Below, piece by piece: positions 1 to 64,000 of a DNA stretch of 64,000 nucleotides. The stretch covers positions 15,332 through 79,331 of the forward strand of contig JANLHP010000022.1 in NCBI GenBank assembly GCA_024654445.1, written 5' to 3'. Positions within the stretch are counted from its first letter, which is position 1. Each line of letters begins with the position of its first letter. A model generated the notes under the pieces. That model made no database searches, was not told where the DNA came from, and saw only the letters and a program-made list of their open reading frames with translations. This DNA is from Candidatus Curtissbacteria bacterium (GTDB lineage Bacteria > Patescibacteriota > Microgenomatia > Curtissbacterales > GWA2-41-24). A program made the translations under genes and the position numbers.

Positions 1-1
1 A

Positions 2-1039
2 ATCTCTACAAAATCCAAATTTAAATCAGGTATTTCTATTAGGATAGAAGGCGTTTCATCTTATCTCAAGTCTCAAGGAATACAAACTGTAATTGTCGAC
101 AAAATAAGGACGCCTAGAAAAGCAGATTATACGTACTTGTTGGTAAGTACCAAAAAAGACTCTATTAGCTACTCCGCGGCTCGTAACATTGAAGACAAAA
201 GTAAGGTGATCGTCGATCTTTACACTCCGCTAATCTTAGAAAAAGAGTTAACCTTTTCAAAATACAAACCTTTTGATTGGGTTAAAAAAAATAGCCAAAA
301 AGACAATATTAAACTAATACTTTCAAAAGGGTCTCATTTTTTCGTTGCAAACAAACGACAAAAGGAATATTGGTTAACTTTTTCCGAACAAGAAAGTTTG
401 AACTTAACCAACAGACAGATCTCAGTTATCCCTACGGGTTATTCACAAAAAAGTATTAAACCCTCACCCCAAAAGAAAATTCTCTGGTTCGGAGGAATTT
501 ACCCTTGGATGAATCCTTATCCTTTAATTGAAGCATTCAAAAAAATAACGGACAGCGATCAAGAGTGGAAGTTAAAAATTCTAGGAGGCTTTCATCCAGA
601 AACTGGTTATCAAAAGATATACAAAGACGTAACTTCAAAATTAAAAACAATCCCTAAAAACCGTCTAGAAATTCTTCCTTGGCTTCCTGCAAAAGACCTT
701 AACAAGAATCTCGCAGATGTTTCTTTCTGTGTTAACCTAGTAAAGGAGTCGAAAGAGGATTTCTACTCGCATCGCGTCAGGCTCCTTACAGTTCTTAACG
801 CTGGAATACCAATATTGACGAATGGTAAAGATACGATAAGTGACCTTGCTGTTGAAAAACTAGCAGGGGAGAAAGTGCATGCTAGAGTCAATGAACTCTA
901 CGAAAAAATGAGTAGTCTAATCAACAATAAGAGACTGGTCAAAAAAATGCGAGACAATGCCCTGAAAGTCCAAAATGATTTTATTAAGGAAAATTTATCA
1001 GATAAAAATTTTAAATCATTTGTCAAAAAAAGTGCCTGA
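2..1039 (+). CDS. GT-B (GT4-like) glycosyltransferase, 5'-truncated at the window edge. The reading frame is open from position 2, and the ORF-track start at 137 is only the first TTG.
   Basis: C-terminal GT4-type motif region (ILWFGGIYPWMNPYPLIEAF...). There is no in-frame stop between position 2 and 137, so the N-terminal domain lies upstream of the window. Confidence 0.5.
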   Translation: MSTKSKFKSGISIRIEGVSSYLKSQGIQTVIVDKIRTPRKADYTYLLVSTKKDSISYSAARNIEDKSKVIVDLYTPLILEKELTFSKYKPFDWVKKNSQKDNIKLILSKGSHFFVANKRQKEYWLTFSEQESLNLTNRQISVIPTGYSQKSIKPSPQKKILWFGGIYPWMNPYPLIEAFKKITDSDQEWKLKILGGFHPETGYQKIYKDVTSKLKTIPKNRLEILPWLPAKDLNKNLADVSFCVNLVKESKEDFYSHRVRLLTVLNAGIPILTNGKDTISDLAVEKLAGEKVHARVNELYEKMSSLINNKRLVKKMRDNALKVQNDFIKENLSDKNFKSFVKKSA

Positions 1040-2621
1040 GGTTTCTAAAGAAAACCTTATTATCTTAACATTCGGGCTTCTAATTGGCTTCGTAGTCTCG
1101 CTCCCCCACATTTTAGGCAGTATTGATAATAAAGGAGCTTATCAGCCCTTTTCCGTCAATTCTGCGGTTTCCTACTCCAAAGAGGAAGCCTATACTTATG
1201 CTGCCCAAGTACAGCACCTTGTCAAAGGTTATTTGATTGGAGACCCATATATATGGGAATACAGAAACGGGCTCTCTCCCTATCTTGGAGAACTAGGTAG
1301 TATTGTTCCTGTATCCATCCTCTCAATACTTTTATCTAGCGTCCCCAAGGGATTTATGGCATCAGACTTTGTCTTTCCGTTTACTCTTTTCTTATTAATC
1401 TCGAAAAATTTAAAAAATTTAGGATTTAATTTAAGTTTCACCCTTTTTGCCGCAAGCGCAGTTCTAGTAATCCCCTTTTTGTCTGTGCTGATACCGAAAA
1501 TCACAAGTTATGGAACTGTTTTAACCGGGATAGAAAATGGGCCGTTGCTCTTTACGAGAACACCTCACCCACAAATATCTGATGTTTACCTTTTTTGCGC
1601 CATCTTCACGTCAATTTGGTTTTTGAAGTCAAAAAATCCCAAAAGAGTAATAATTCTACCAATAATCCTTGGGCTCTCGCTTTACTCTTCTGTCTATGTC
1701 GCATCAACAATTATCTTAGCATCGCTGATCATCGCACCTTTTGCCGCAAAAAACTTGGACAAAAAGCAAATAACAAAAATCTTAATTATTGGGGCGATAG
1801 TTTCGCTGCCTCTGCTTTTAAATTTTTACCTGACACGGGAAATTCTCTCGAAGGAGTTCATTCTACGGTTTTCTCAAGAAAAAAATTTTCTCTTCCCAAT
1901 CCAAATTAGGTACCTTTTAATTGCATTCCTTCTGTATAAATTTAGGCCTCGCGACCCCATCTACAAAGTTTTATTTATATATGTAGTTTGCGCTGCAGTT
2001 CTTATTGATTTTCACCAAATTATTCTCGGAAGAGATTTACAAGGAGACCACTGGATAACAAGAGTTATAGCTCCTTTGGCTACGCTCTCTCTTTTATTAA
2101 TCACCTATACTTTTTTCAAAAAGGCAAATTACCGACTTTGGACTTTGGCTACGCTCTCGATTTTAATTTTTGGCTTTTACGTCCAGAATAACTGGTATCA
2201 GAACAACAAAAGTTATTTAACGCAAGACACCAGAACTGCGTCATTGATAATGCAAATAAACACAATGGGCAACAATTACGTAGTGGGCACTTTGAACACC
2301 AGCCTAGGAGACGAAATTAGAGCAACTACGGGAATCTGGACTTATCTTTCACCCGGGGATAGGTCTTATATAAGTACCGCAGAACAAATCCAGAGAGCTT
2401 GCGACCTTTTAGTTTTACAAAAGGGTACATCAACTCTAGAAGAAGCAAACGAAGCGCTACTATATGAGTTAGGTCTCGAGGCTAAGAATAAAAAAACTGT
2501 GGAAAAAGTGCAAAGAGAATTATCGCAGTGTGCACAAAAAAACAATACAACGCCCTCCTTTAAACTAGACTACTTAATAGTCGAAAGCGAAAATGGAGAG
2601 TACTCCTTAAAAAAGATCTAG
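975..2621 (+). CDS. Polytopic integral membrane protein with a C-terminal soluble domain; putative GT-C-type glycosyltransferase or polymerase. The start is uncertain (ATG at 975 or GTG at 1032).
   Basis: Ten or more predicted hydrophobic helices followed by a roughly 150 aa hydrophilic tail. It sits next to other GT-C-like genes. Confidence 0.4.
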   Translation: MILLRKIYQIKILNHLSKKVPEVSKENLIILTFGLLIGFVVSLPHILGSIDNKGAYQPFSVNSAVSYSKEEAYTYAAQVQHLVKGYLIGDPYIWEYRNGLSPYLGELGSIVPVSILSILLSSVPKGFMASDFVFPFTLFLLISKNLKNLGFNLSFTLFAASAVLVIPFLSVLIPKITSYGTVLTGIENGPLLFTRTPHPQISDVYLFCAIFTSIWFLKSKNPKRVIILPIILGLSLYSSVYVASTIILASLIIAPFAAKNLDKKQITKILIIGAIVSLPLLLNFYLTREILSKEFILRFSQEKNFLFPIQIRYLLIAFLLYKFRPRDPIYKVLFIYVVCAAVLIDFHQIILGRDLQGDHWITRVIAPLATLSLLLITYTFFKKANYRLWTLATLSILIFGFYVQNNWYQNNKSYLTQDTRTASLIMQINTMGNNYVVGTLNTSLGDEIRATTGIWTYLSPGDRSYISTAEQIQRACDLLVLQKGTSTLEEANEALLYELGLEAKNKKTVEKVQRELSQCAQKNNTTPSFKLDYLIVESENGEYSLKKI

Positions 2622-2622
2622 A

Positions 2623-4119
2623 ATGACAAAGATCGTAAAGATTCAACTCATTTTATTCTCAGCGTTATTGATATTATGGAATATTTTTACACCTATTCTA
2701 GAAGGCGCCGATGAATCCGGACATTTTTGTCACGCTGACTATATTGCGCATAAAGGGAAAATTCCTAACATTAAAATCCAAGACGGTTGCTATCTTTGGC
2801 ACCCACCATTCTATTATTCAATGTTGGCACCAATCATAAAAGTGTTTGGCTTGCCAGAGTATCCCCAAAGCCAATTAGAGATGAATCCCAACTTCAACTT
2901 ACTTAGAAAAGGAGAGTATTCTCAGTTTGTACACACTAAGGAAGAATTGATGCTTGGCTGGGGACGCCTCGAATTCTTAGTCCATACTTTAAGATTATTT
3001 TCTGTACTTTGCGCCATTGGCATCTTTTTGATTGCAGTTCAATTATTAAAATTCACCTTGAAAAACGAAAGCCAAAGAACCCTAAGCCTACTCTTTCTTT
3101 TCAACCCCATGTTTATTCATATTTTTACCACGCTTACAAACGTAACCCTATTAAGTTTTATTTCCGCACTTTTTCTTTTTATTGAATTAAAATACTTCAA
3201 AAGCTTAAAACCTGCAAAAATTCACGTCCTTCAAGGCTTTTTACTGGGTATCGGATTTTTAACTAAAATAACCTTCGTTGCAGCCGGAGCGTTCTATTTA
3301 AGTGTTGCTTTGTTAAAATTAAGAAACAGACCTGAAAGCCTTAGAAGAAGTGCAATAGAAATATTAATCTTTATATCGACTTTCATGATCGTCACTGGAT
3401 GGTACTTGGCAAGAGCTCTCACTCTTTATGACACGCCTCTGGAAATTAACGCGCTCACTCAAGCGCAAGGAGGAGACCACCATTTAGATCTTCTAGAAAA
3501 TATTGGCCCTTTAAATTATTGGAATAGTTTTGCCTTAACACTGTTTAGAACTTTTTGGTCTGGGTATGGAGCGCTGACAGTACGCTTTCCTGAAATATTA
3601 AATTTAGTTTTACTTATCAGCGTTATGCTCGTAATAATAGCAGCAATTAAAAAATGGAAAAGAACAAATGCTTACTTCAAATTGTCAGCACTTTACTTAG
3701 CGGTAACTTTCATAACTCTAATCATCGGAAATTTCACACTATCTGCAATGCATGCAAAGGATCTATTCCCCGCGTACTTACCAATCTCTTTCTTATTCGC
3801 TTATGGGGCGAGCAATTTGACAAAAGTATTTAAAAAAAACGGAAAAATGATTTTTTTGGGAATTCCCGTAGCGATCTATTTTTTTGCACAAAACGAAGTT
3901 GTTGGAATTCTAAAATTACTGTTCTTCCAAGAATCTCAAGGGGCTTACTTAAAACCTCTAATTGTTAAGGTGACGACTGTTCTAGCTCTGTATGGTCTTA
4001 TTTATCAAGGGCTAAAAAAATTAAAGATAAATAACAGGTGGCATATCAAAATTACGTTTACTTTATTTGTCGCCAATATTGTAATTCTAGCAATTTCCAC
4101 CTACTTATTTTACAGCTGA
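2623..4119 (+). CDS. Polytopic membrane protein, DUF2142/GT-C-like putative glycosyltransferase.
   Basis: An acidic DE-x-x-H motif in the first extracytoplasmic loop (ADESGHFCHADYIAH) and many TM helices. It is a paralog of the ORF at 58124..59707 (PDEQAHF). Confidence 0.45.
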   Translation: MTKIVKIQLILFSALLILWNIFTPILEGADESGHFCHADYIAHKGKIPNIKIQDGCYLWHPPFYYSMLAPIIKVFGLPEYPQSQLEMNPNFNLLRKGEYSQFVHTKEELMLGWGRLEFLVHTLRLFSVLCAIGIFLIAVQLLKFTLKNESQRTLSLLFLFNPMFIHIFTTLTNVTLLSFISALFLFIELKYFKSLKPAKIHVLQGFLLGIGFLTKITFVAAGAFYLSVALLKLRNRPESLRRSAIEILIFISTFMIVTGWYLARALTLYDTPLEINALTQAQGGDHHLDLLENIGPLNYWNSFALTLFRTFWSGYGALTVRFPEILNLVLLISVMLVIIAAIKKWKRTNAYFKLSALYLAVTFITLIIGNFTLSAMHAKDLFPAYLPISFLFAYGASNLTKVFKKNGKMIFLGIPVAIYFFAQNEVVGILKLLFFQESQGAYLKPLIVKVTTVLALYGLIYQGLKKLKINNRWHIKITFTLFVANIVILAISTYLFYS

Positions 4120-5045
4120 GGTTTTTTAATAATGTATTCAAGTTTCATCGGAAGAATTCCGACTTCAGAAAACGCAGCGCGCAGCAGCTTCTTCGGTAAA
4201 GAAATTAAAACTAGCAGCAGTTGATTTTTAGACCTTTTTTGGTTCCAGTGCTTTTTAATTTGTCCTGACAAGTCACGGTTGGCCTCGACAGACGACCACT
4301 CAATTTCTAGCTTGTTTGCTCTGCACAACCTTTCAATTAGCCTGTTGTTTGTGTAATTAAGCGAGAAAACAAAGTCTTTTACTACGGAGTAGTCTCTTTC
4401 TCTTACCCAATTAACCTTTCTAATATTTAAAAACTTCAACGCAAAAAGTGCCCACAGCGAAAAAACCCTCTTTGGCATTAAAGGAAAGTATGGTAAATGA
4501 TAATGTTGTTCTACAGGGAAAAAATAATTAGGACAACTCAAATATATAAATCCGCCAGGTTTTAATATTCTCGCAAGTTCCTTCAGAGACTTCTCCGGAT
4601 CTTGAACATGCTCCAAGACCTGAGAAAAGACGCATAGATCAACGACCCCACTTTTTAGAGGTATCTTTTCAGCGGTGCCATCAATTACTTTTAACCGCCC
4701 CTTTTTCTTTCGAAGCTTATTGTAATAGTACTTAATAATTTTTCTATCTTTAGTGCTTGGCTCTATCGCAACGACCTCAAATCCAAGCGATACTAAATTC
4801 AAAGAAAATTGCCCATATCCGGCCCCAATGTCTGCAATCAATCCCGGAGTTTTGTTCGTATTAGATAATATGTGCCTAACAGTCCTTGCCGTCAGCTTAA
4901 AGGACTCCGCGAAAAACTTTTCCAAAGACTCGGTCGACCCATTCCAATATTTGTTATTTAATTCAACCCATAGCTTATCTTTGTCTTCGGCCTTCGAATA
5001 CATTAAGTCGACCGGAAGATTTTTGCGTCGAGTATCAGAAGTCAT
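4110..5045 (-). CDS. Class I SAM-dependent methyltransferase.
   Basis: Motif I DIGAGYG, motif post-I VVAIEPS and motif II LKPGGFIYLS, as in the Methyltransf_11/12 family. Confidence 0.8.
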   Translation of the reverse strand: MTSDTRRKNLPVDLMYSKAEDKDKLWVELNNKYWNGSTESLEKFFAESFKLTARTVRHILSNTNKTPGLIADIGAGYGQFSLNLVSLGFEVVAIEPSTKDRKIIKYYYNKLRKKKGRLKVIDGTAEKIPLKSGVVDLCVFSQVLEHVQDPEKSLKELARILKPGGFIYLSCPNYFFPVEQHYHLPYFPLMPKRVFSLWALFALKFLNIRKVNWVRERDYSVVKDFVFSLNYTNNRLIERLCRANKLEIEWSSVEANRDLSGQIKKHWNQKRSKNQLLLVLISLPKKLLRAAFSEVGILPMKLEYIIKKPQL

Positions 5046-5068
5046 ATTTACTTAAATAAATTATTCAT

Positions 5069-5210
5069 GGACTAAAGCCCATGATTAGGCCCGGAATCAC
5101 ATTTAGTTACATAAATATGACGAGGACCGCATGGCACTGTAGGTTTTGACATTCGCTTAAAGAATCACTCTCAGCCTCAACTTGAAAGCTGGGGCTTCTC
5201 GCTCACAATA
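5069..5210 (+). repeat. Intergenic repeat element, copy A (forward). Its 3' part overlaps the C-terminal codons of the ORF 5177..6709.
   Basis: Shares ggactaaag..ttaggcccgga..GACGAGGACCGCAyGGCAyTGTA..ttttgaYATTCGCT..ctcgctcaYaata with copies at 17461, 35631 and 63582. Confidence 0.8.
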
Positions 5211-6709
5211 ACCTTGTTTATAAATTTGTCGATCTCCATAAAAGATTTGATGCCAAAAGCAGAAACATAATGATTCGAAAATTTATTTTGATAAAATCTC
5301 TGCCTTTTTAGTTTATTTTTGTCGTATAAAATCTTTTTAATGCCAACATCAATATCTTCAAGCTGATCAAATTTTATGTTTATCGAGCTCTTACTTTTAA
5401 CAAAAGGATCCCCGAATTTTCCAGACAGAAATGAATTATCGAAGTAGAGTGTTGGCTTATTTTTCAAAATTGCAATCAGACCCGCAGTTGTCGCGCCTGT
5501 TATTACAACGTCACTCTTATTAATAACATTTTCTACCTTACTTGAATTATCCACCTTTACATTTGCGGGAAGTTCCAGATCGTCAAGGTCGTCCCTTAAA
5601 GAATAAGAAGGGTGGTTTCTCAGAATAATTCTAAATCCCGAATCTAATTTTGAAAGCCCTTTAACTAGCTTTTCAATCGATTGTTTATTCGAGTACCTTA
5701 AAAAAAGAGACAAAGTTCCAAAAATAGGTGCCCATAAAACTAAAACGTTTATGATCTTTTTTTCTTTCAAGTTAACATGATTAATGTGTTTCGGCCTTTT
5801 ATAATACGGACAGCCGGCTATATATGCATTTTTAGGGTGGATCATTTTCGCCAGTCTGCCCCATACCAAATAATAATCAGAAAAGTAAAAATCAGATTCA
5901 ATTATTTCCCAGGTCGCTATTCCATGTTGAATTTCAGCAACCTTTATTCCAAATGACTTCGCCATTAAAGCAAAAGCTGAGCCAAATGTATCATTGCTCG
6001 TTGAAGTTAAAATAACTTGAGGTTTCGCTCGTAAATAAAGATAAAAGGCAAAATTTAAAAAAGAAACAATTTCAGGAAACAAAAAAAGCCTTAAATACCA
6101 TAATCTGAGCGTCCAGGGTCGACCGGCAAGAAGTGCATTCTCATTTTCTACCCGCCATCTTCTAAAGACAAAAAAAGATAAGGCTTTCAACCGCTCGCGT
6201 CGTGATTGGTACCTTTGAGTGTTGGTGAGATTTAAAAATGAAATATTGATACTTTTCAGATATTTTTGATCAACCTCTGTTATTTTCCCGACGACTAAAA
6301 CCTTCCTCCTCTTTGAGAGGTACTTAATGAGTGGCAAAAGACCACTTAGGTGCCTGCCGCTAGCCACTATTAAAACCTCAGATGCCACATGTGGCCATTT
6401 AATTTTTGCCCTTGGCGCCACAATCAATTTAAGAAGGTGAGTAAGCTTTGATGCATATTTAAGTGCCTTTCGGCCGGGACTTAAGGAGTAAGCAAACGTT
6501 TGTGGGTATTGTCCCCAAACGTCATCTATAGGCTGCTTTTGTAAAAGCGACGAAAAAAAATGATGCTGAGAGAAAGCCTGAATTTTTTCCAGTGATATGC
6601 CATAAAACTTATAATTATTATTCGGATAATACTTGGAGATCCAGTTTTTCGACAAATCAACTGAATAGTCGTACAAGTTTTTTGACTTATTAAATGAGGA
6701 AGCAATCAC
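5177..6709 (-). CDS. GT-B-like protein with an HP motif; putative CMP-ulosonic-acid (sialyl/Kdo-type) transferase. A TagF-like glycerophosphotransferase is the alternative.
   Basis: It carries an RNHPSY (HP) motif and a GCPYY motif, and is paralogous to 15055..16371 (RPHPW, GTPRFE). It lies between a methyltransferase and the nonulosonate synthase operon. Confidence 0.35.
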   Translation of the reverse strand: MIASSFNKSKNLYDYSVDLSKNWISKYYPNNNYKFYGISLEKIQAFSQHHFFSSLLQKQPIDDVWGQYPQTFAYSLSPGRKALKYASKLTHLLKLIVAPRAKIKWPHVASEVLIVASGRHLSGLLPLIKYLSKRRKVLVVGKITEVDQKYLKSINISFLNLTNTQRYQSRRERLKALSFFVFRRWRVENENALLAGRPWTLRLWYLRLFLFPEIVSFLNFAFYLYLRAKPQVILTSTSNDTFGSAFALMAKSFGIKVAEIQHGIATWEIIESDFYFSDYYLVWGRLAKMIHPKNAYIAGCPYYKRPKHINHVNLKEKKIINVLVLWAPIFGTLSLFLRYSNKQSIEKLVKGLSKLDSGFRIILRNHPSYSLRDDLDDLELPANVKVDNSSKVENVINKSDVVITGATTAGLIAILKNKPTLYFDNSFLSGKFGDPFVKSKSSINIKFDQLEDIDVGIKKILYDKNKLKRQRFYQNKFSNHYVSAFGIKSFMEIDKFINKVIVSEKPQLSS

Positions 6710-8250: not shown

Positions 8251-8260
8251 TAGCTTGCTG

Positions 8261-9388: not shown

Positions 9389-9397
9389 AACTTATGT

Positions 9398-16371: not shown

Positions 16372-16380
16372 AAAACGAAG

Positions 16381-17376: not shown

Positions 17377-17460
17377 GAAGTCAAAAGTCTCCGTATTTTA
17401 TGCGAATTGTTGCCACATTTACAAGGTGATCACATAAAGTACAGCTCAGAAGTTACTTTA

Positions 17461-20664: not shown

Positions 20665-20706
20665 TTTCTTCTTAAGGCCATTATTATAGCAATACTGCTC
20701 TCGTGC

Positions 20707-22535: not shown

Positions 22536-22546
22536 AACGCTAGTTT

Positions 22547-37699: not shown

Positions 37700-37701
37700 G
37701 T

Positions 37702-42242: not shown

Positions 42243-42263
42243 AAATGCGTGGGAAAATTACCT

Positions 42264-45094: not shown

Positions 45095-45095
45095 A

Positions 45096-53823: not shown

Positions 53824-53825
53824 AT

Positions 53826-54782: not shown

Positions 54783-54817
54783 GTAATCATATTTTAACAG
54801 GATGAATTAACTTTTTA

Positions 54818-56688: not shown

Positions 56689-58089
56689 CTAAGGTAATTC
56701 GGGGCAGTTCTCAAATTCAACAAAACAGTACTTATAATTTTTTTCCCTGAACCAGAAATCTATTGCCTTTCCGGTACCTAAAGAAATGTACTGATCCTGT
56801 GAAGATGCATTATTCGCACCATCAAAAATTAACATAGAACCACTTGGTAAATTTTTGTCTTTTACATTTTTAATCGCTTCTTTTGCGACGATACTTCTTG
56901 CAATAACCCAGCTGTTTTTCATCGCAAGTGTTTGTCCATAAGTTGCAATAATCAAAAATAAAAGAGCAAGAGAAACTAAGTGAGATGACTTCAGTTTTTG
57001 AACAGCAAAGCCGATAATCCCGCTCAACCCAAATGCGCTGATTACCATGTAATGCGCACCCAGGTGACTCGGTATCAAAACAAACGGGAAAAGGCCAACA
57101 ACTGTTATAAAACAAAGAAATATAAATGTTCGTAAGTCGTCTTTGTTTCTAAACCCCCGAATATATATAAGGCAAATCACAAAAAGGTATGAAATAAGAG
57201 CAAGCGAAAAAAGACTCTTCCCTTGGCCTTCAACAAAACCGAGTATCCTTAACAGATAAAATCTAAAAGTGAAAATTGTCCTTTGCGAAATCTCGAGGAC
57301 GTAAACATTCAAAGTATCGGGGGGAGTAAAAAATAAAAGCTTTACTCCCGAAAAGAGAACAGTCAACGCAAAAAGTGCTGATAAAAAAGAAAAGTCACTC
57401 TTTATTCCGAGCGAAAAATTCCGGCTTTTAAGCCGGGGATGAAGCGAATCTTTGAGCGAGGAAGAGAGAACCACGGCCGAAAGAACGTGGGAATCTATCC
57501 TTTTAAGAAAAACAGAAGTCGCGACAAATATTAAAATACCAACAACTATCGCTTCCGTTGCAAGCAATGAAAGAAAATAAAATAAAAATGCCCCAAGCTT
57601 TCTTTTTATAATAAAAAGATAAAGGCTAAGAGAAAAGAACAGAAATCCAATATTCACCGCTCCTCCGGAAATCCAGAATAGGGAAGTGAAGTGCAAGGGG
57701 TGAGTAGCGTAAACAACAGACGCGAAAAAACCAGAAATATTATTTTTGAAAAGTTTTCCAAAAACCAAAAAAACCATAAATGCGCAAAGAGTGTGAATGA
57801 GAAGAATTACTACGTGGTAAGCAGGGTAAAATTTCCCAAAAAGATTACCTGTTATAAGAAAAAACAAGTTATGTATAGGTCGCCAGTGAGTAACTTCTGG
57901 AGGACCGAATACATTTTGTAAATCCACCAAAAAGGAATTTTGAGAAAAATTATTTATTAAAATAAAATCATCTTGAGCGAAGAAATTAAAAAGAGATCTA
58001 AACCATACTACGACAATAACTAAAGTTAAAATCAAAAAAACAACCGAGTTTTTACTCACAGTTTTAATTCTATCATCGAAGAATGGCAA
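56689..58089 (-). CDS. GT-C-fold membrane glycosyltransferase (ArnT/PMT-like).
   Basis: An acidic first-loop motif (FAQDDFIL) and more than 10 TM helices. It sits downstream of the ArnB/ArnC-like genes. Confidence 0.6.
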   Translation of the reverse strand: MPFFDDRIKTVSKNSVVFLILTLVIVVVWFRSLFNFFAQDDFILINNFSQNSFLVDLQNVFGPPEVTHWRPIHNLFFLITGNLFGKFYPAYHVVILLIHTLCAFMVFLVFGKLFKNNISGFFASVVYATHPLHFTSLFWISGGAVNIGFLFFSLSLYLFIIKRKLGAFLFYFLSLLATEAIVVGILIFVATSVFLKRIDSHVLSAVVLSSSLKDSLHPRLKSRNFSLGIKSDFSFLSALFALTVLFSGVKLLFFTPPDTLNVYVLEISQRTIFTFRFYLLRILGFVEGQGKSLFSLALISYLFVICLIYIRGFRNKDDLRTFIFLCFITVVGLFPFVLIPSHLGAHYMVISAFGLSGIIGFAVQKLKSSHLVSLALLFLIIATYGQTLAMKNSWVIARSIVAKEAIKNVKDKNLPSGSMLIFDGANNASSQDQYISLGTGKAIDFWFREKNYKYCFVEFENCPELP

Positions 58090-58123
58090 AAATATGAATT
58101 CTGCCTGATATAATCAAGTTTAA

Positions 58124-59707
58124 GTGAATGGACTCCTTAAACTACTTATCGCGGCTGCTCTTTTAAACTCTTTGTCGTGGATTATTTTAACTCCCGTTTG
58201 GCAATACCCGGATGAACAAGCGCATTTTTCTCAAGTACAGGATATGGCGGAAATTGGATATGTACCAACAAGCCTAAACACGTCCCAAGAAGTTTCCCTC
58301 TCTGAACAAATACTTGAAACCGAAAGAAACAACCTTGGAAACAACAAATTCACGTATCACCCGGAATATAAAATTAATTATGGCAACGGTTGGTATGGCC
58401 CCAGAGAACGGGAGCTTGCGCAATTACAAGAGTCAGAGCGCACAAACTTTGTAAAAAATGAAGCAACTCAAAACCCTCCTTTTTACTACACGCTCGCATC
58501 TATTTTTTATAACATCTTTGACGGTGGCAGTATCCTCAATCGCGTGTACGCGGTAAGGTTTATGTCTGCATTACTTTTTGTCGCAAATATTTATGTCGCG
58601 GCAAAAATTGGAAACATTGTCTTCCCTAAAGAGAAAATTTTAGCTTTCACAATTCCCACGCTTGTTGCTTTCAAGCCAATGCTTGTCCATGCGTCAACCG
58701 GAGTACTTCCCGACACGCTCACGAATCTCCTATTCAGCGCAGTACTGCTCGTTTGTTTAAAGATCATGACAGTTGGATTAAAAACAAAGTTCCTCCTTAT
58801 AGGGATTGTGCTCATAACAGCAGGAGTTTTTACTAGGCAGCAATTTCTTCTCGCAGTTCCAATTTTGGCAATAAGCGCCGCATTTAGCGTTTGGAAAAAG
58901 AAGAAGGTTCTTTCCTTGACAATCGCCTCAATTCTAATTATTGCAATTTGCCTTCTTGAAGCAGGTTACAGGTTTGCGTCAACCCCTTTTATTTCTTATT
59001 TTCGAATCCCGGAATTAAGTCTTATCAAAGTAGAATCTCTCGCAAGCGAATCAATTATCGATTATTTGAAATGGTCAATAAGGCAAACCATAGCTCAAAC
59101 TCTGCCTTGGTATTGGGGAGTCTACAAATGGCTGTCTTTAACAGTGCCGCATTTAAATTATCAAATTATAAATAGAATCATAATAGTCTCAGTCGTAGGA
59201 GTACTTCTAAGGTATTTCTTAGCCTTCCGTAACCGAAAATTTACCCAACAAGACGTATTGTTGACGTTTTTGATTATCGCAAGCCTTGTTTACTTTGCCC
59301 TCTTTTTAGTCTGGGATTACTTTTTCGTTCAAACTCACAATTTCCCATTTGGTTTTCAGGGAAGATATTTTTTTCCGCTCGTAGTTGCACATATAACGAT
59401 TCTATTGCTTGGGCTTATGGAAATTGCCCGATTAATTTTAAAAGACAGGGCGTGGCTTTTGGCACCTTTACTTGTCGCGGCGATGATTATTTTTAATTGG
59501 GTTTCTCTGTTTACCGTTGCTTCCTCATACTACGGCACATCAAATCTTAACCTTTTTATAGATCAGGCCAGTCAGTACAAACCCGAAATCGTAAAGGGTA
59601 ATGCAATCCTTCTTATACTGCTGCTATCAATTGTGTCCCAAATAATCCTCGTTTTAAATTTTTCTAAATTTACTCTCAAGCATCCTAAATGGCAAACAGA
59701 AAGGTAA
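58124..59707 (+). CDS. DUF2142/GT-C-like polytopic membrane protein (GTG start).
   Basis: YPDEQAHF motif near the N-terminus and many TM helices. It is a paralog of 2623..4119. Confidence 0.45.
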   Translation: MNGLLKLLIAAALLNSLSWIILTPVWQYPDEQAHFSQVQDMAEIGYVPTSLNTSQEVSLSEQILETERNNLGNNKFTYHPEYKINYGNGWYGPRERELAQLQESERTNFVKNEATQNPPFYYTLASIFYNIFDGGSILNRVYAVRFMSALLFVANIYVAAKIGNIVFPKEKILAFTIPTLVAFKPMLVHASTGVLPDTLTNLLFSAVLLVCLKIMTVGLKTKFLLIGIVLITAGVFTRQQFLLAVPILAISAAFSVWKKKKVLSLTIASILIIAICLLEAGYRFASTPFISYFRIPELSLIKVESLASESIIDYLKWSIRQTIAQTLPWYWGVYKWLSLTVPHLNYQIINRIIIVSVVGVLLRYFLAFRNRKFTQQDVLLTFLIIASLVYFALFLVWDYFFVQTHNFPFGFQGRYFFPLVVAHITILLLGLMEIARLILKDRAWLLAPLLVAAMIIFNWVSLFTVASSYYGTSNLNLFIDQASQYKPEIVKGNAILLILLLSIVSQIILVLNFSKFTLKHPKWQTER

Positions 59708-60849
59708 CCCTCGACGTTAAAAGAAATTTAGCAGTCATACTGCTTTTAGTTTTCGCAACTGCCCAATTCATTTTAATCCTGCGCCACAAAAATCCATACG
59801 TTTCAGACAGTTATTTTTATAAGCATACATACTATCAACTTAAAGGTTTAAGCTACGACGAGGCCCAAGCAAAAATCATTAGCGAAGTAGACCTGATAGC
59901 AGCGGACGAAATTACCAGAAATTTTTTTCAAAACAAGGAAACTTACGCTAATTCGTATTCATTTTTCCAAAAAAGACCCTTTTACCCTCTTACCGCGTAT
60001 TTGGCAAGCCTATTTAATCTCAACGATTATTTATCTTTTCAAATACCCGTATTTACCGCTTATATCTTAAGCGTTATTCTTGTGTTCCGCCTGTCAAAAG
60101 AAGGACTGGGCTACTTTTTTGCTATCATTTCAACTGCACTTTTTGTTTCTTTCTATCCGTTTCTTGACAGTTCAACTTATTTTTTAACAGACACAATCGG
60201 TTTTGCCTTTTGGTTAAGCCAGATATTCACGATTTACAATTACATCAAAAGTAAAAAGAGCAAATGGCTTATATTCTTCTTTATCTCTCTCTCAATCTCC
60301 CTCTTAAACAGAGAGCAAAGCGTTCTCATGGCGCCACTACTTATGAGCGCTTTAGTCCTTCAAAAACTCCTCTTACTAAAAGGCGCGAGTCAAATTAAAA
60401 AATTGCTCTTTGTTTCCTTCATCCCAATAATCTTATTCATCACTGTCTCCTTTATGTTAAAACTCCCAAATATATACGACACCATCAGCTACACTCAAAA
60501 TAATTACGGCTTGCGTTCAAACAAATTTACAGCGGAAGAAACTTTTAGGTATATGGCAAACGCGATTAAGATATCACATTATGTTTTTATAAGAGACATC
60601 GTCAGTCACCACTGGTGGTTACTCTTGTCCGCGCTGGCAGCAGTTAGTGCTTTGAGGTCTTTGGTAAAAGGGAAAAGAAATAATTTGGACATCCTTATTG
60701 TAAGCTCGGCCCTAGCTTCGTATCTGGCTATTTTTATCTATCCCGTTTTAAGTTACAGATATTTCTTGCCAATAGTTTTCGCTGTTTCATACTTCAGCGT
60801 AAAAATACTCCGAGATTATAATAAGGAAGTTATGTCAAAAAACAAATGA
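59689..60849 (+). CDS. Polytopic membrane protein of unknown function (polymerase, ligase or GT-C-like).
   Basis: Ten or more hydrophobic helices. It lies in an operon with a GT-C and an acetyltransferase. Confidence 0.35.
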   Translation: MANRKVTLDVKRNLAVILLLVFATAQFILILRHKNPYVSDSYFYKHTYYQLKGLSYDEAQAKIISEVDLIAADEITRNFFQNKETYANSYSFFQKRPFYPLTAYLASLFNLNDYLSFQIPVFTAYILSVILVFRLSKEGLGYFFAIISTALFVSFYPFLDSSTYFLTDTIGFAFWLSQIFTIYNYIKSKKSKWLIFFFISLSISLLNREQSVLMAPLLMSALVLQKLLLLKGASQIKKLLFVSFIPIILFITVSFMLKLPNIYDTISYTQNNYGLRSNKFTAEETFRYMANAIKISHYVFIRDIVSHHWWLLLSALAAVSALRSLVKGKRNNLDILIVSSALASYLAIFIYPVLSYRYFLPIVFAVSYFSVKILRDYNKEVMSKNK

Positions 60850-61385
60850 AAGCCAGGGAAGAGCTAGGCACTAAAAAAATTCTAGAGTTTGCGTTTTTTT
60901 CCTTTCTCCAACTGATTTATTGCCTCCTGTTTTTACCGCCTTTAAAAAAGATTTCCCTGGAGCTTTTGGGCGCCCGAATAGGGCAGGGGACAGTCATCAT
61001 GAATGCCAAATTTTTCAACTTGCACCACAATGGACTTAAAGGGTTCAAAACGGGAAGAGATTGTTTTATTGCCGATGATGTCCTTATCGATCTTTACGAC
61101 AACGTAACTCTCGAAGACCAAGTAACTCTGGCACAAAGAGTAACTGTGCTTACACATCTAAATGTGGGGTACAAAGATCATCCGCTTCAAAAGTATTTCC
61201 CGAAAAGATCAGAACCTGTAGTCTTTAAAAACGGTTGTGTAGTTGGCGCAAGTTCAACAATTCTCAGTGGCGTGACAATTGGAGAAAAATCCTTTGTTGC
61301 TGCCGCAAGCCTTGTAACAGAAAATGTGCCACCAAATACATTAGTTGGCGGAGTACCCGCGAAAATAATTAGGAAAATTAAATGA
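60846..61385 (+). CDS. Hexapeptide-repeat (left-handed beta-helix) acetyltransferase, sugar O-acetyltransferase type.
   Basis: Tandem hexapeptide repeats near the C-terminus (GCVVGASSTILSGVTIGEKSFVAAASLV). Confidence 0.8.
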   Translation: MKAREELGTKKILEFAFFSFLQLIYCLLFLPPLKKISLELLGARIGQGTVIMNAKFFNLHHNGLKGFKTGRDCFIADDVLIDLYDNVTLEDQVTLAQRVTVLTHLNVGYKDHPLQKYFPKRSEPVVFKNGCVVGASSTILSGVTIGEKSFVAAASLVTENVPPNTLVGGVPAKIIRKIK

Positions 61386-61945
61386 TGATTCCATTCTATG
61401 AATCATTAAGGCCACTCATCCTGCCTTTAAGTCAGATAGACAGCCTTCTGCCAAAGCAAGGAACAATCGTTGAGCTTGGATGTGGTCAAGCAGTAATTGC
61501 AATCTATCTGGCAAAAAACAAAAAAAGAAAAGTAATTGGAGTCGACCAAGACACTTCGAGGCTTCCAAAAAATTCCACAAAAAATCTAAAGTTTATAAAT
61601 GCCGATATCAGAACTTACAAATTGGAAAAAGCGGACGGGGTAGTAATATCAGATGTCCTTCATCATATCAGTTCAAAAGACCAAGAAAAAATCCTCCAAA
61701 ACATTGCAAATTCTTTAAGAAAGGGCAAGATATTGATTATAAAAGAGATCGACACGGAAGAGAAAGTTAGAAGCAAGTTATCACGTCTCTGGGATTTTAT
61801 CCTTTACCCTAGGGACCACATCGACTACTGGAGCTCGAGCGCCCTTAAGTCTCAGCTTGAGCGGTTAGGCTTCAGGGTTGAAATAAAAAGAACTATAAGA
61901 CCGTTTCCGGCGTCAACCACCCTATTTATTTGTATAAAAATGTAA
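61382..61945 (+). CDS. Class I SAM-dependent methyltransferase.
   Basis: TIVELGCGQAV motif I and the acidic post-I VIGVDQD. Confidence 0.75.
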   Translation: MMIPFYESLRPLILPLSQIDSLLPKQGTIVELGCGQAVIAIYLAKNKKRKVIGVDQDTSRLPKNSTKNLKFINADIRTYKLEKADGVVISDVLHHISSKDQEKILQNIANSLRKGKILIIKEIDTEEKVRSKLSRLWDFILYPRDHIDYWSSSALKSQLERLGFRVEIKRTIRPFPASTTLFICIKM

Positions 61946-61982
61946 TTTTTCCTAATAAATATGTGAGAAACTCATTTTTCAT

Positions 61983-63581
61983 ATGTACAAAAATTTAATC
62001 CGACATTGGCCACTATTGCTGATTGTAATTCTGGCATTTGTCTTAAGAGTTGTAAATCTAGAAAAACTTTTTTACTTCACATACGATGAATCTATACCTG
62101 CCTTCGTCGGAAGGAGACTGATTCTCACAAACCACATACCACTTATCGGGGGAGTAACACCCTTTGGATTCCACCTTGGACCATACTTTTACTGGCTCTT
62201 GGCACTGCTCTTATATATTGGCAAGTTAAATCCAATCGTGTGGGGAATTGCGGGGGCTCTTTTAGGAAGCGCCACAACTTTTATGGCGTATGTTGCGGGA
62301 CAAAAGTTCCTGAACAAAAAAGCCGGCGTAACGGCTGCCGTGTTTTGGGCATTTTCTTTTCTTGCGAATCTGTACGACAGACACTTTTGGGCTTTGTCTT
62401 GGGGTCCAATTATTTCACTGATCGTGTTGTTTTCTCTTCATGGAATAATCAAAGGAAATTCAAGATTTGTTTATCCACTCGCTGTCTCTGTCGCTTTTGG
62501 TATCCACGCCGACCCTTCCAACCTCGTATTTGTATTGCTCGTTGGGCTGGTGTGGGCAATCTACAAGTTGCCAATTACAAGACACACGCTTCTTGCCACG
62601 AGCTTAATTATTTTCTCATTCCTTCCCCTTGTCGCTTTCGACCTTAGACATGATTTTGCAAATACTCGACCTATGATTTCTCATTTCAAAAACTTTTCAA
62701 ACCGGCAGCCAGATCAAAAAACACTTTCACAAAGAGCGACTGACAACGCTATCATATTTCCCGCGGCCTTCGCGAGACTCGTTTATACTCTTGGAGACAA
62801 CGAAGTCTCTAAACAATACTCATACTGTGGAAATTACGTCGCCGAAAAAACAAGAATTATTCCAGTGTATTTGATACTACTGGCATCATCCCTCCTTACC
62901 GGCTTTGCGCTTTGGGGATTCAACCAAAAAACCAAAAACCCCGCCATCTTTATATCAGCCCTTCTTCTCGTAGTTTATTTTCTTGGCATCCAACTTTATG
63001 GAACCCTTGCAAAAGCGGATATTTTTGAACATTACATTTCAGGGACTTTCGCGATTTTTCTTTTAATTTTGGCAAAGGTTGTAAGCAAATTACCAAGAAA
63101 GCTTTGGCTCGTCGTACTGGCAATCTTTGTTGGCGCTAATCTCTACAAGCTGTTAATTGCCACCAACTCGCATGGGCTAACACAAAAGAGAGAGGCAATA
63201 GAATATGTTAATTCCAGAGTAGGGGACGCGCCTTTCTCCCTAGAATCAGTTTCTACGTGCTGGAAATACAATGGCTACAGATACCTGTTTACAGTTTTTG
63301 GCAAAGAACCCGTCAAAAGTTACGTCGACCCAAATTTCGCTTACCTTTATGGAACGACGACAGTTTGGGAAACCCACCCCGGCACGGTAATCGCTTTTGT
63401 TACTCACGACTTTTCTGAGGAGACCGAAGAGTTTTATAAAAGATATGCGCTTTTAAAATCCCACGAGGTGAGTTCGGGAATCTTCGGTAATATAGAAGTT
63501 ATAATGATGGATAACCAGATAAAATGGTTCGATGACATTAACACTAGTGTTAAACCGCCTTCTTTTGAACAACAGCGCTAA
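61983..63581 (+). CDS. GT-C-fold membrane glycosyltransferase (GT39/GT83-like).
   Basis: First-loop YDESIPAFVGRR acidic motif, more than 11 TM helices, and a C-terminal soluble domain. Confidence 0.6.
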   Translation: MYKNLIRHWPLLLIVILAFVLRVVNLEKLFYFTYDESIPAFVGRRLILTNHIPLIGGVTPFGFHLGPYFYWLLALLLYIGKLNPIVWGIAGALLGSATTFMAYVAGQKFLNKKAGVTAAVFWAFSFLANLYDRHFWALSWGPIISLIVLFSLHGIIKGNSRFVYPLAVSVAFGIHADPSNLVFVLLVGLVWAIYKLPITRHTLLATSLIIFSFLPLVAFDLRHDFANTRPMISHFKNFSNRQPDQKTLSQRATDNAIIFPAAFARLVYTLGDNEVSKQYSYCGNYVAEKTRIIPVYLILLASSLLTGFALWGFNQKTKNPAIFISALLLVVYFLGIQLYGTLAKADIFEHYISGTFAIFLLILAKVVSKLPRKLWLVVLAIFVGANLYKLLIATNSHGLTQKREAIEYVNSRVGDAPFSLESVSTCWKYNGYRYLFTVFGKEPVKSYVDPNFAYLYGTTTVWETHPGTVIAFVTHDFSEETEEFYKRYALLKSHEVSSGIFGNIEVIMMDNQIKWFDDINTSVKPPSFEQQR

Positions 63582-63672
63582 GACCGCATGCCACGGCCCT
63601 GAGTAATCGAAGGGGCTCTATATTAGGCCCGCAGTGTTTTGACGAGGACCGCAAGCTTTGCTTATACTCAAC
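63582..63672 (+). repeat. Intergenic repeat element, copy D (forward, shortened), upstream of the Wzx-like gene. Internally it forms a sigma70-like TTGACG-17nt-TTATAC arrangement.
   Basis: ttaggcccg...ttttGACGAGGACCGCAagc core, plus a second degenerate gaccgcatgccacggcc half-copy. Confidence 0.6.
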
Positions 63673-63679
63673 GAAGTAA

Positions 63680-64000
63680 ATGCTGACAAAGTTTAAAAAC
63701 CTTCTTTTCACAAAAACCGGCAAAGATACAGGCATAGTGTTAGCAGGAACAGTAATAAATGTTATCGCCGGAGGTTTATTCTTTGTGATTGCCCCTAGAC
63801 TCCTTGGCCCGGGAGATTTCGGAATATTTTCAACTGTAGTCGGAACTTGCTTGCTCGCAGTTTCAATTTCAAGCTTTGGAATAGACACCGGCATATTAAA
63901 ATTTGCTACCCGAACATCACCGAATGCGCCTTTCATCTTATCCGTTGCTCTGAAATCATATTTAGTTATCGGAGCGACAGTCGCGATCGTCGGGGTGTCT
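63680..64000 (+). CDS. Polysaccharide biosynthesis protein/flippase (Wzx/MOP family), 3'-truncated at the window edge.
   Basis: The N-terminus MLTKFKNLLFTKTGKDTGIVLAGTVINVIAGGLFFVIAPRLLGPGDFGIF is typical of MOP-flippase TM1-TM2. The reading frame is open to the window end. Confidence 0.5.
   Translation, partial: MLTKFKNLLFTKTGKDTGIVLAGTVINVIAGGLFFVIAPRLLGPGDFGIFSTVVGTCLLAVSISSFGIDTGILKFATRTSPNAPFILSVALKSYLVIGATVAIVGVS

What the first reader, a model, noticed from the sequence alone, without database searches (positions are those of the whole stretch)
1..64000. Overall architecture suggests a hypervariable, modular glycosylation island from a small-genome low-GC lineage
More than 55 genes sit on one strand with overlapping start and stop codons (many ATGA, 4-nt, and 8-20 nt overlaps), with frequent GTG/TTG starts and a leaderless-type promoter (copy D). 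Six sugar pathways plus GT-C arrays are compressed into 64 kb and partitioned by a shared repeat. This is the signature of a glycan-diversity hotspot (O-antigen, capsule or S-layer-glycan type) that may be exchanged module-by-module.
Basis: inference. Interest (0 to 1): 0.5.

Follow-up and report, generated by a model that had tools for sequence, protein, structure and literature searches.

The report
Surface-sugar gene supercluster in a Curtissbacteria genome
The window is one very large block of genes for making and exporting unusual cell-surface sugars in a tiny-genome groundwater bacterium; the block is rebuilt from the same multi-gene modules in related species, but the repeat that seems to divide it is a small hairpin element scattered all over such genomes, not a module marker.

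Summary
The whole 64 kb is a surface-glycan locus of a Candidatus Curtissbacteria (CPR) genome. One protein is 100% identical to an NCBI Curtissbacteria GT39.

Confirmed:
- Dense packing: about 98% coding, with 28-30 of 53 same-strand junctions overlapping.
- About six sugar pathways: pseudaminic acid with amidination, RfbH-type dideoxyhexose with a ThDP branching enzyme, a second ulosonic acid, heptose, a 4-amino-4,6-dideoxyhexose, and a transketolase/E1 set.
- Wzm/Wzt, a Wzx start, and five GT-C-like membrane proteins.

Overstated:
- 49 of 60 genes, not more than 55, share a strand.
- Half of the GTG/TTG starts are artefacts of taking the longest ORF.

Relatives:
- Six related loci reuse the same modules in different combinations, for example a Leg-type block in place of the Pse-type one.
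- Ten places carrying one identical GT39 protein are fully syntenic.
- Third-codon-position GC (GC3) is uniform across modules.

The locus is therefore mosaic between species. Strain-level hypervariability is not shown.

The shared repeat contains a hairpin element found at least 98 times in groundwater metagenomes, mostly beside housekeeping genes. It has no orientation bias, is often in frame inside genes, and is absent from the related glycan loci. It behaves like Rickettsia palindromic elements, not like a cassette boundary.

The parts
137..4119 (+). Left arm: a weak GT1-like gene (137-1039) and two polytopic membrane proteins (975-2621 with 7 TM segments; 2623-4119 with 8 TM segments, DUF2142-like)
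   Evidence: Pfam. TM counts. 2623-4119 against the DUF2142 protein at 58124-59707: E 2e-6 over 357 aa, sharing a DE..HF motif.
4110..5045 (-). SAM-dependent methyltransferase
   Evidence: Methyltransf_11, 74 bits.
5054..5211 (+). Repeat copy A. It is composite, with the hairpin core at 5085-5131. It fills the whole gap between two genes and supplies the last 11 codons and the stop of gene 5177-6709.
5177..17376 (-). Pseudaminic-acid module: PseB 16381-17376, PseC 13914-15071, GNAT-PseI fusion 6706-8358, cytidylyltransferase 10796-11581, WbuX/HisH/WbuZ-like amidination genes 8261-10820, SDR, AKR, DUF218, and two 'surface carbohydrate biosynthesis'-like proteins
   Evidence: PseB, PseC, PseI and WbuX score above the NCBIfam cut-offs. 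Pfam.
17458..17598 (-). Repeat copy B, inverted relative to A and C, with a degenerate hairpin core at 17532-17569
   Evidence: Promoter-like TTGATA-17-CATATT pointing towards PseB.
17712..30007 (-). Conserved core block: GT39 (a GT-C glycosyltransferase) 17712-19391, RfbH 19363-20664, membrane GT2 on the + strand 20614-21651, reductase-like 21648-22535, ThDP (acetolactate-synthase-like) enzyme 22547-24331, DmpG/DmpF 24399-26358, 4,6-dehydratase 26366-27349, RfbF-like cytidylyltransferase 27313-28083, transketolase 28070-30007
   Evidence: RfbH 677 bits against a cut-off of 423; DmpG and DmpF above cut-off; RfbF 277 against 300. The block is syntenic in L203-L206 at 60-82% aa identity.
30008..35609 (-). 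Second ulosonic-acid module: cytidylyltransferase, aldehyde dehydrogenase, SDR, KdsC-type phosphatase, NeuB-like synthase 33504-34571, and GT2 34719-35609
35616..35764 (+). Repeat copy C (hairpin core 35647-35684), in the divergent gap between the GT2 and GmhA genes
   Evidence: Promoter-like TCGACG-17-TATATT at 35670-35698. No Rfam match at E<=1.
35826..43037 (-). Heptose module: GmhA-like on the + strand (35826-36395), HddC-GmhB-like fusion, GHMP kinase, two Fcl-like reductases/epimerases, RmlC-like epimerase, FkbM methyltransferase, and an unknown gene
   Evidence: The matches are at domain level and below the equivalog cut-offs.
43063..50674 (-). AKR, split transketolase, second ThDP enzyme, E1 beta/alpha and a 4,6-dehydratase. 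The same order is found in L201.
45899..45960 (+). Short hairpin copy E (45899-45928) plus the related 21-nt motif (45940-45960), translated as the first 20 codons of the transketolase-N gene
   Evidence: This 20-aa N-terminal extension is absent from the L201 orthologue.
50748..52894 (-). Wzt/Wzm ABC exporter. The 21-nt motif at 51097-51117 lies in an 8-aa in-frame insert of Wzt.
52876..56670 (-). Amino-sugar set: two SDR dehydratase/epimerases, a WecE-like 4-aminotransferase and a short GT2
   Evidence: NF008687, 399.6 bits against a cut-off of 375. Pfam.
56689..63581 (.). Right-hand membrane-protein array: unknown 9-TM protein (56689-58089, - strand), DUF2142 (58124-59707), PMT_2 (59689-60849), hexapeptide acyltransferase, methyltransferase, and a GT-C-like 9-TM protein (61983-63581)
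   Evidence: 61983-63581 against GT39: E 8e-4 over the N-terminal 169 aa, with a DE motif.
63582..63679 (+). Repeat copy D: a truncated unit plus a full hairpin core at 63623-63653, with promoter-like hexamers at 63639-63668
63680..64000 (+). N-terminus of a Wzx-type flippase that runs off the window. The ORF at 63550-63936 on the - strand is spurious.
   Evidence: PF01943, 30.9 bits against a cut-off of 28.2.

Best explanation
The window is part of a cell-surface glycan supercluster of at least 64 kb in a Candidatus Curtissbacteria genome.

How it most likely works:
1. Cytoplasmic enzymes make several rare activated sugars. These are CMP-pseudaminic acid with an acetamidino group, a CDP-3,6-dideoxyhexose carrying a carbon branch, a second CMP-ulosonic acid, an NDP-heptose derivative and an NDP-4-amino-4,6-dideoxyhexose.
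2. GT2 enzymes load the sugars onto polyprenyl phosphate, or build chains on it.
3. Wzm/Wzt and a Wzx-type flippase move the products across the membrane.
4. GT-C enzymes (GT39/PMT_2, DUF2142 and relatives) attach them to envelope proteins or polymers outside the cell.

Shown: gene content, the source lineage, and the between-species comparison. Inferred: the acceptor and the sugar structures.

Evolution: the locus is a mosaic. Multi-gene modules keep their internal order but are recombined or replaced between species, and stay fixed within a species.

The shared repeat is not part of this logic. It is a composite of small hairpin elements of a family dispersed through Curtissbacteria genomes. 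These elements settle in the few intergenic gaps of a 98%-coding genome, and in frame inside genes. At most they add promoters by chance.
For: Lineage: P0001 is 100% identical and is named Curtissbacteria GT39.

Pathways: PseB, PseC, PseI, WbuX, RfbH, DmpG, DmpF, the KdsC subfamily and the WecE-like transaminase all score above the NCBIfam cut-offs. Pfam supports the other genes.

Export and transfer: Wzm/Wzt, Wzx, GT-C proteins.

Mosaic between species:
- The core RfbF...RfbH-GT39 block is syntenic at 60-82% identity in L203-L206.
- The block after GT39 differs: Pse-type here, Leg-type at 30-45% identity in L203 and L205, an extra C-methyltransferase block in L202, L204 and L206, and the Wzm-Wzt-E1-TPP-TK block in L201.

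Stable within a species.

Uniform composition.

The repeat as a dispersed element:
- At least 98 non-redundant copies in metagenomes.
- Flanking proteins fall into 158 Pfam families among 133 proteins, with GT1 and GT2 only 4 each.
- No orientation bias.
- 78 different inner hairpins with compensated stems, mean stem 5.0 bp against 0.63 in shuffles.
- 51 of 75 distinct core lengths are multiples of 3, p 9e-10.
- In-frame inserts are seen in LepA and in the window's own TK-N and Wzt genes.
- The element is absent from the related glycan loci.
Against: - No initiating phosphoglycosyl transferase, Wzy polymerase or acceptor protein lies in the window, so the end product is unknown.
- Heptose genes and several dehydratases match only at domain level, below equivalog cut-offs.
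- The nearest relative is only 56% identical in GT39, so variation within this organism's own species could not be examined.
- The within-species test selects near-identical strains and covers only 20 kb.
- Three of the five repeat copies do carry promoter-like hexamers aimed at a downstream gene start, so a local regulatory role is not excluded.
Confidence: 0.75

Rival explanations
1. The repeat copies are recombination sites at which whole sugar modules are exchanged as cassettes.
For: - Copies A, B, C and D sit at four module borders and fill four of the seven gaps over 50 nt.
- Modules do change partners between species.
- Tandem and nested copies elsewhere show that the element takes part in local rearrangements.
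Against: - There is no copy at any junction in L001 or L201-L206.
- Copy E lies inside a module and inside a gene.
- Several borders have no copy: 30007/30008, 43037/43063, and 50675-50747.
- Copies A and C are only about 72-74% identical, and B is inverted.
- No recombinase is encoded in the window.
- Elsewhere the element mostly flanks housekeeping genes.
Confidence: 0.1
2. The repeat is a promoter-plus-leader element that starts the operons of the locus, including a near-leaderless start for Wzx at copy D.
For: - Hexamers TTGACG-18-TATACT lie 11 nt before the ATG at 63680.
- TCGACG-17-TATATT points towards GmhA.
- TTGATA-17-CATATT points towards PseB.
- The spacing between GACG and the TA of the element's tail is fixed at 17-18 nt across the family.
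- Correia elements of Neisseria are a precedent for promoters carried on small repeats (PMC10969869).
Against: - The number of promoter-like sites is not above shuffled expectation in any region.
- Copies A and E point into a 3' end or run antisense.
- In the metagenome set, elements upstream of a gene start are 22 in the same orientation and 29 in the opposite.
- Fold z-scores are weak, from -0.4 to -2.1.
- There is no Rfam match.
Confidence: 0.2
3. The window is a strain-level hypervariable flexible island, recently acquired piece by piece through horizontal transfer.
For: - PseB's best matches outside the lineage come from many phyla at 52-59% identity, as is usual for such genes.
- Gene content differs between species.
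Against: - GC3 is uniform across modules and there is no GC-skew break.
- The window has no tRNA, integrase or transposase.
- Ten places from different samples with one identical GT39 protein are fully syntenic.
- The core block is 60-82% identical to Curtissbacteria relatives, consistent with vertical descent.
Confidence: 0.12

Closest known systems
O-antigen / capsule / flagellin-glycosylation gene clusters (e.g. the Campylobacter jejuni Pse and heptose loci; Wzm/Wzt-dependent O-antigen loci) - comparison from my own knowledge
   Same: Nucleotide-sugar pathway modules (Pse, 3,6-dideoxyhexose via RfbH, heptose via GmhA/HddA/HddC) sit beside glycosyltransferases and Wzm/Wzt or Wzx exporters. 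These loci are mosaic between lineages.
   Different: - The window has no initiating phosphoglycosyl transferase, Wzy, ligase, flagellin or maf genes.
- It relies heavily on GT-C enzymes.
- The host is a CPR bacterium with a genome of about 1 Mb, of which this locus is at least 6%.
- It is much larger than a typical O-antigen cluster.
- Two ThDP enzymes, DmpFG, transketolases and an E1 pair are embedded in it.
Three-component polyprenyl-phosphate glycosylation systems (GtrA/GtrB/Gtr-type; ArnC/ArnT; CsbB/YfhO) - from my own knowledge
   Same: A membrane GT2 is paired with a GT-C enzyme next to the pathway for the donor sugar: GT2 20614-21651 with GT39 17712-19391, and GT2 55951-56670 with DUF2142/PMT_2. 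A GtrA-family gene sits in the related locus L202.
   Different: No GtrA-type flippase gene was found in the window. The donor sugars are unusual branched or dideoxy sugars. The acceptor is unknown.
Yersiniose-type branched 3,6-dideoxyhexose pathway (the YerE ThDP enzyme) - from my own knowledge
   Same: RfbF-like, 4,6-dehydratase, RfbH and an acetolactate-synthase-like ThDP enzyme next to a reductase.
   Different: Membership of the YerE family was not tested. DmpG/DmpF and a transketolase are conserved inside the block in four relatives, which the known pathway does not need. No RfbI-type reductase was found.
Rickettsia palindromic elements (RPEs) and Correia elements (PMC10969869)
   Same: The repeat is small, palindromic and multi-copy. 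Copies often lie in frame inside unrelated housekeeping genes, as RPEs do. Copies sit close to gene starts with sigma-70-like hexamers, as Correia elements do. Nested and clustered copies occur.
   Different: - It is much shorter (39-51 nt unit, against about 150 nt) and has no terminal inverted repeats.
- Two conserved boxes that resemble each other (AGGCCCGCA and AGGACCGCA) flank a free-sequence hairpin.
- The lineage is different (Curtissbacteria).
- Many copies are flanked by recoded duplicates of the neighbouring gene end, which is not described for RPEs.

Membership tests
Pseudaminic acid pathway (PseB, C, H, G, I, F) | PseB inverting 4,6-dehydratase and PseC aminotransferase | tested here: met
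   TIGR03589, 467.7 bits against a cut-off of 407.75. TIGR03588, 476 bits against 423.5.
Pseudaminic acid pathway (PseB, C, H, G, I, F) | PseI synthase | tested here: met
   TIGR03586, 433.9 bits against a cut-off of 340.25, fused to a GNAT domain.
Pseudaminic acid pathway (PseB, C, H, G, I, F) | PseH, PseG and PseF equivalogs | tested here: inconclusive
   PseH scores 26 bits against a cut-off of 93 (GNAT domain only). No PseG match was found. The cytidylyltransferase matches CTP_transf_3 but no PseF equivalog above cut-off.
CDP-3,6-dideoxyhexose pathway (RfbF, G, H, I) | RfbH (E1) 3-dehydrase | tested here: met
   NF011936, 677.5 bits against a cut-off of 423.
CDP-3,6-dideoxyhexose pathway (RfbF, G, H, I) | RfbF, RfbG and RfbI | tested here: inconclusive
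   RfbF scores 277 against a cut-off of 300. The CDP-glucose dehydratase model scores 163 against 278. No RfbI-type reductase was found.
GDP-glycero-manno-heptose pathway (GmhA, HddA, GmhB, HddC) | All four activities at equivalog level | tested here: inconclusive
   GmhA 171 against 209; HddA 129 against 600; GmhB 149 against 178; HddC 89 against 300. The domain families are all present.
ABC-transporter-dependent polysaccharide export | Wzm (ABC-2 permease) with Wzt (an ATPase with a C-terminal domain) | tested here: met
   ABC2_membrane 79.5 bits and ABC_tran 86 bits. Wzt_C is weak, at 20.6 against a cut-off of 30.4.
GT-C glycosyltransferases | Polytopic membrane protein matching a GT-C family model | tested here: met
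   PMT_2 31.5 and 35.9 bits against a cut-off of 26.1; DUF2142 68.1 against 30.1. Two further proteins match only by pairwise similarity, E 2e-6 and 8e-4. 975-2621 and 56689-58089 remain unassigned.
Strain-level hypervariable genomic island | Gene content differs among strains of one species | tested here: not met
   Tested in a sister species only. Ten places with the identical GT39 protein P0014 have the same gene order over +-10 kb. It could not be tested for the window's own species.
Strain-level hypervariable genomic island | Atypical composition, or flanking tRNA/integrase | tested here: not met
   GC3 is 0.35-0.41 in all modules. There is no tRNA and no integrase or transposase family. 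The rest of the genome was not available for comparison.
Mosaic glycan locus (modules recombined between lineages) | Conserved blocks in different combinations, with non-orthologous replacement at the same position | tested here: met
MITE | Terminal inverted repeats and a short fixed target-site duplication | tested here: not met
   The conserved ends are direct, not inverted, copies of each other. The LepA filled and empty sites show a 48-nt insert with no clear duplication.
RPE-like in-frame palindromic element | Multi-copy palindromic unit inserted in frame in unrelated genes | tested here: met
   15 of 98 copies lie in frames open for at least 60 codons on both sides. Core lengths are multiples of 3 in 51 of 75 cases. 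In-frame inserts are seen in LepA and in the window's TK-N and Wzt genes.
Known RNA families (Rfam 15) | Match to a curated covariance model | tested here: not met
   No match at gathering score in the window. No match at E<=1 in 35400-36000.

The most novel reading that the evidence does not exclude
The shared repeat belongs to an undescribed family of frame-preserving hairpin elements of Curtissbacteria. In other genomes these elements are flanked by a second, recoded copy of the neighbouring gene end. For example, the last 21 codons of rplL are repeated after the stop codon. That second copy stays under coding-type constraint. This would mean one of two things: either the element travels with replacement gene ends, or ribosomes or RNA processing pass over the element and the stop codon. 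Either would be a new way for selfish DNA to live inside the essential genes of a minimal genome.
Probability: 0.2. Interest if true: 0.75.

Novelty: new member of a known kind. Interest (0 to 1): 0.42.

Why it matters
CPR bacteria are usually described as metabolically minimal. Here one of them spends at least 64 kb on rare surface sugars. That is at least 6% of a genome of about 1 Mb, judging from the longest Curtissbacteria contigs seen (0.72-1.08 Mb). The module set differs from species to species.

This points to strong diversifying pressure on the cell surface, from phages, hosts or grazers. It also supplies concrete gene sets for predicting surface glycans of uncultured episymbionts.

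Separately, the repeat leads to a family of tiny hairpin elements that riddle the housekeeping genes of this lineage. Anyone annotating CPR genomes needs to know about them: they create false start codons, protein-length variation and apparent 'conserved intergenic motifs'.

Tried and rejected
- Exact look-ups of four window proteins (PseB, 2623-4119, 61983-63581, P0001) found no contig, so the window could not be extended.
- A 35-nt pattern from the middle of the long repeat found nothing in genome contigs or metagenome contigs. The ~150-nt composite therefore seems specific to this genome, unlike its hairpin core.
- The hairpin core pattern was not found in viral contigs.
- Known RNA families: none matched. 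Single-sequence folds of the long copies are weak, with z from -0.4 to -2.1. A riboswitch or leader RNA is unlikely, also because the element has no orientation bias.
- A CRISPR-like array was considered for three copies spaced 63 nt apart in L148. It was rejected because the 'spacers' are identical.
- An integron attC or MITE reading was rejected. The window has no integrase, the element has no inverted ends, and no fixed duplication was seen.
- Assembly chimaeras as the cause of the duplicated gene ends were rejected. The copies are direct, and the arrangement recurs in independent samples and in two species.
- An HMM built from the GT39 family did not detect the other membrane proteins. Pairwise BLASTP gave the weak GT-C links instead.
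- Literature searches for CPR palindromic repeats and for CPR nonulosonic-acid loci found nothing relevant.


Full report
**Source and layout**

The GT39 gene at 17712-19391 is 100% identical to an NCBI protein named 'glycosyltransferase family 39 protein [Candidatus Curtissbacteria bacterium]', on a 97,899-bp contig. The next-best homologues are only 56% identical. Look-ups of four window proteins found no stored contig, so nothing beyond the window could be read.

GC content is 0.36-0.43, and the cumulative GC skew falls steadily with no break. There are no tRNA genes and no Rfam matches.

I count 60 genes, 49 on the - strand and 11 on the + strand. About 98% of the window is coding. Of 53 same-strand junctions, 28-30 overlap, and only 7 gaps exceed 50 nt.

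Taking the longest ORF gives 21 GTG or TTG starts. Eleven of these have an in-frame ATG within 13 codons, and the deposited GT39 protein starts at such an ATG. No Shine-Dalgarno-like motif is obvious upstream of the starts.

**Gene content**

All recognisable genes concern sugars (Pfam; NCBIfam). In order of transcription on the - strand:
- An amino-sugar set at 52876-56670, with a WecE-like transaminase above its cut-off and a short GT2.
- Wzm/Wzt.
- A block of 4,6-dehydratase, E1 alpha and beta, ThDP enzyme, split transketolase and AKR (43063-50674).
- A heptose block (GmhA-like, GHMP kinase, HddC-GmhB-like fusion, Fcl-like and RmlC-like enzymes, FkbM methyltransferase). Its matches are at domain level only.
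- A second ulosonic-acid block (NeuB-like, KdsC-type phosphatase, cytidylyltransferase, ALDH, SDR) with a GT2.
- A block of RfbF-like, dehydratase, DmpF, DmpG, ThDP enzyme, reductase, a membrane GT2 on the opposite strand, RfbH (677 bits against a cut-off of 423) and GT39.
- A pseudaminic-acid block. PseB, PseC, PseI and the WbuX amidotransferase score above cut-off, with HisH and WbuZ-like partners.

The two arms on the + strand hold polytopic membrane proteins. DUF2142 and PMT_2 are identified by Pfam. Protein 2623-4119 resembles DUF2142 (E 2e-6) and 61983-63581 resembles GT39 (E 8e-4); both share the acidic motif of the first loop. Two others remain unassigned. A Wzx-type gene starts at 63680.

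'Six sugar pathways plus GT-C arrays' is therefore a fair description. Several assignments rest on domain-level matches only.

**Comparison with relatives**

GT39 homologues served as anchors, and I read six distinct related loci (L001/L202, L201, L203, L204, L205, L206).

The block RfbF-dehydratase-DmpF-DmpG-ThDP-reductase-GT2(opposite strand)-RfbH-GT39 recurs at 60-82% protein identity, with local substitutions:
- DJ-1, Ldh_2 and HAD genes replace DmpFG in L202.
- An aminotransferase and a GNAT replace the reductase in L206.
- L205 has an extra ThDP enzyme.
- L203 has Wzm/Wzt inserted before GT39.

What follows GT39 differs from locus to locus:
- The Pse block in the window.
- A legionaminic-type block (NeuC-like epimerase, GFO oxidoreductase, NeuB) at only 30-45% identity and in reverse gene order, in L203 and L205.
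- An added GT2, epimerase and C-methyltransferase block in L202, L204 and L206.
- In L201, PseB followed directly by Wzm-Wzt-dehydratase-E1-ThDP-transketolase-AKR. This is the same order as window genes 52894 down to 43063, which lie 24 kb on the other side of GT39 in the window.

The modules are therefore real units that are recombined and replaced between species.

In contrast, ten places from different samples that carry the identical GT39 protein of one sister species have the same gene order over +-10 kb. GC3 is 0.35-0.41 in every module of the window, with a within-module sd of 0.02-0.03.

The evidence thus supports a locus that is mosaic between species and compositionally at home. It does not support a strain-level hypervariable island built by recent foreign acquisitions. 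This organism's own species could not be examined.

**The shared repeat in the window**

There are three copies of about 150 nt (A, C, and B inverted) and two short copies (D, E). All five share a core: TTAGGCCCGCA, a hairpin, GAGGACCGCA, then a short tail.

The copies occupy four of the seven larger gaps. Copy E, together with a related 21-nt motif, forms the first 20 codons of the transketolase-N gene. This extension is absent from the L201 orthologue. The same motif lies in an 8-aa insert of Wzt. Copy A supplies the last 11 codons of gene 5177-6709.

**The same core elsewhere**

After removing duplicates, 98 copies remain.
- Their inner hairpins have 78 different sequences, yet keep a mean terminal stem of 5.0 bp against 0.63 in shuffles.
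- They show no orientation preference relative to neighbouring genes.
- Their 133 neighbouring proteins fall into 158 Pfam families dominated by housekeeping functions: TatD, translation GTPases, RecO, aminoacyl-tRNA synthetases, trigger factor, NusG and L7/L12. GT1 and GT2 appear four times each.
- Fifteen copies lie in reading frames open for at least 60 codons on both sides.
- Core lengths are multiples of three in 51 of 75 distinct cases, p 9e-10.
- A 48-nt copy sits in frame in LepA of a Curtissbacteria genome. Thermus EF4 and many Curtissbacteria orthologues lack it. LepA length in this lineage ranges from 577 to 664 aa, with two insertion hot spots.
- None of the related glycan loci contains the element. 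It was not found in viral contigs.

The repeat is therefore a dispersed, probably mobile, frame-tolerant hairpin element. It is comparable in behaviour to Rickettsia palindromic elements and, in its position near gene starts, to Correia elements (PMC10969869). It collects in the few gaps of this locus but does not define the modules.

**Promoter idea**

Read in its own sense, the element offers xxGACG, a 17-18 nt spacer, then TAnnnT. Copy D gives TTGACG-18-TATACT 11 nt before the Wzx ATG. Copies C and B give weaker sites aimed at GmhA and PseB.

The number of such sites is not above shuffled expectation. Copies A and E point the wrong way, and the family has no orientation bias. I treat promoter donation as possible but unproven.

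**Unexplained observation outside the window**

In the metagenome loci, many elements are flanked by a direct duplication of the adjacent gene end. The two copies encode the same peptide and differ almost only at third codon positions.
- rplL C-terminus in two species: differences by codon position [1,0,14] and [3,1,17].
- Other genes: [2,1,5], [1,0,8], [2,1,8], [1,0,5].
- A pair of neighbouring tRNA genes as a control: [7,5,6].

The distance between the two copies is a multiple of three in the six cases where they share a reading frame (four gene C-termini, one gene N-terminus in L186, and L133).

Between the two species, the rplL copy beyond the stop codon is as conserved (82%) as the coding copy (82%). 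It is more conserved than the linker and the downstream DNA (61%).

I could not explain this. It is not seen at the five window copies.

**Verdict**

The locus is a new member of a known kind: a mosaic surface-glycan gene cluster. It is notable for its size in a CPR genome. The repeat is a separate phenomenon that deserves its own study.

Noticed in passing
L157 1530-1700 and L093 about 2050-2250 (rplL 3' end); also L088, L133, L144, L186, L091: Hairpin elements are flanked by a second copy of the neighbouring gene end. That copy encodes the same peptide with nearly all differences at third codon positions. The period is a multiple of 3. The rplL copy beyond the stop codon is as conserved between two species as the coding copy (82% against 61% for the flanks).
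   Followed up: partly
Alignment A3 (Curtissbacteria LepA, P0060-P0177); L102 2891-2930: LepA/EF4 of Curtissbacteria varies from 577 to 664 aa. Unrelated inserts sit at two hot spots, after IRLxY and after RIPxP. Two of the inserts are the hairpin element read in frame (LGPQS...). Other inserts look like translations of further repeat families.
   Followed up: partly
window 24399-26358; L203 1249-3170; L204 452-1495; L205 1-1200; L206 2264-4182: DmpG/DmpF (4-hydroxy-2-oxovalerate aldolase and acetaldehyde dehydrogenase) are conserved inside the CDP-dideoxyhexose/ThDP-enzyme block in the window and four relatives. This is an association with sugar biosynthesis that the known yersiniose-type pathway does not require.
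   Followed up: no
window 17600-17711: The 335-nt gap holding copy B also contains further hairpins (CCACGGCTTCCAGCCGTGG at about 17605-17630 and CCACGGGCTATGCCTGTGG at 17689-17707). A 57-codon ORF starts at the ATG of 'TTATTATGAGCGAG' (17464). None of this was analysed.
   Followed up: no
window 5196-5206, 17463-17473, 35749-35759; L097, L103, L173: A second repeated motif, (A/G)TGAGCGAG(C)A(G)AA followed by a GC-rich hairpin, accompanies the hairpin element in the three long copies and in some metagenome loci. Its orientation relative to the hairpin element varies, which suggests a separate, nested element family.
   Followed up: no
L148 5281-7071; L132 2082-2174; L087 141-230: Tandem units (3 x 63 nt, 2 x 51 nt) and nested copies of the hairpin element occur. 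The 'spacers' are identical, so these are not CRISPR-like arrays.
   Followed up: partly
window 63550-63936 (-) and 56042-56299 (+): These mechanical ORFs are spurious. The first overlaps repeat copy D and the true Wzx start at 63680. The second lies antisense within the aminotransferase/GT2 overlap.
   Followed up: yes
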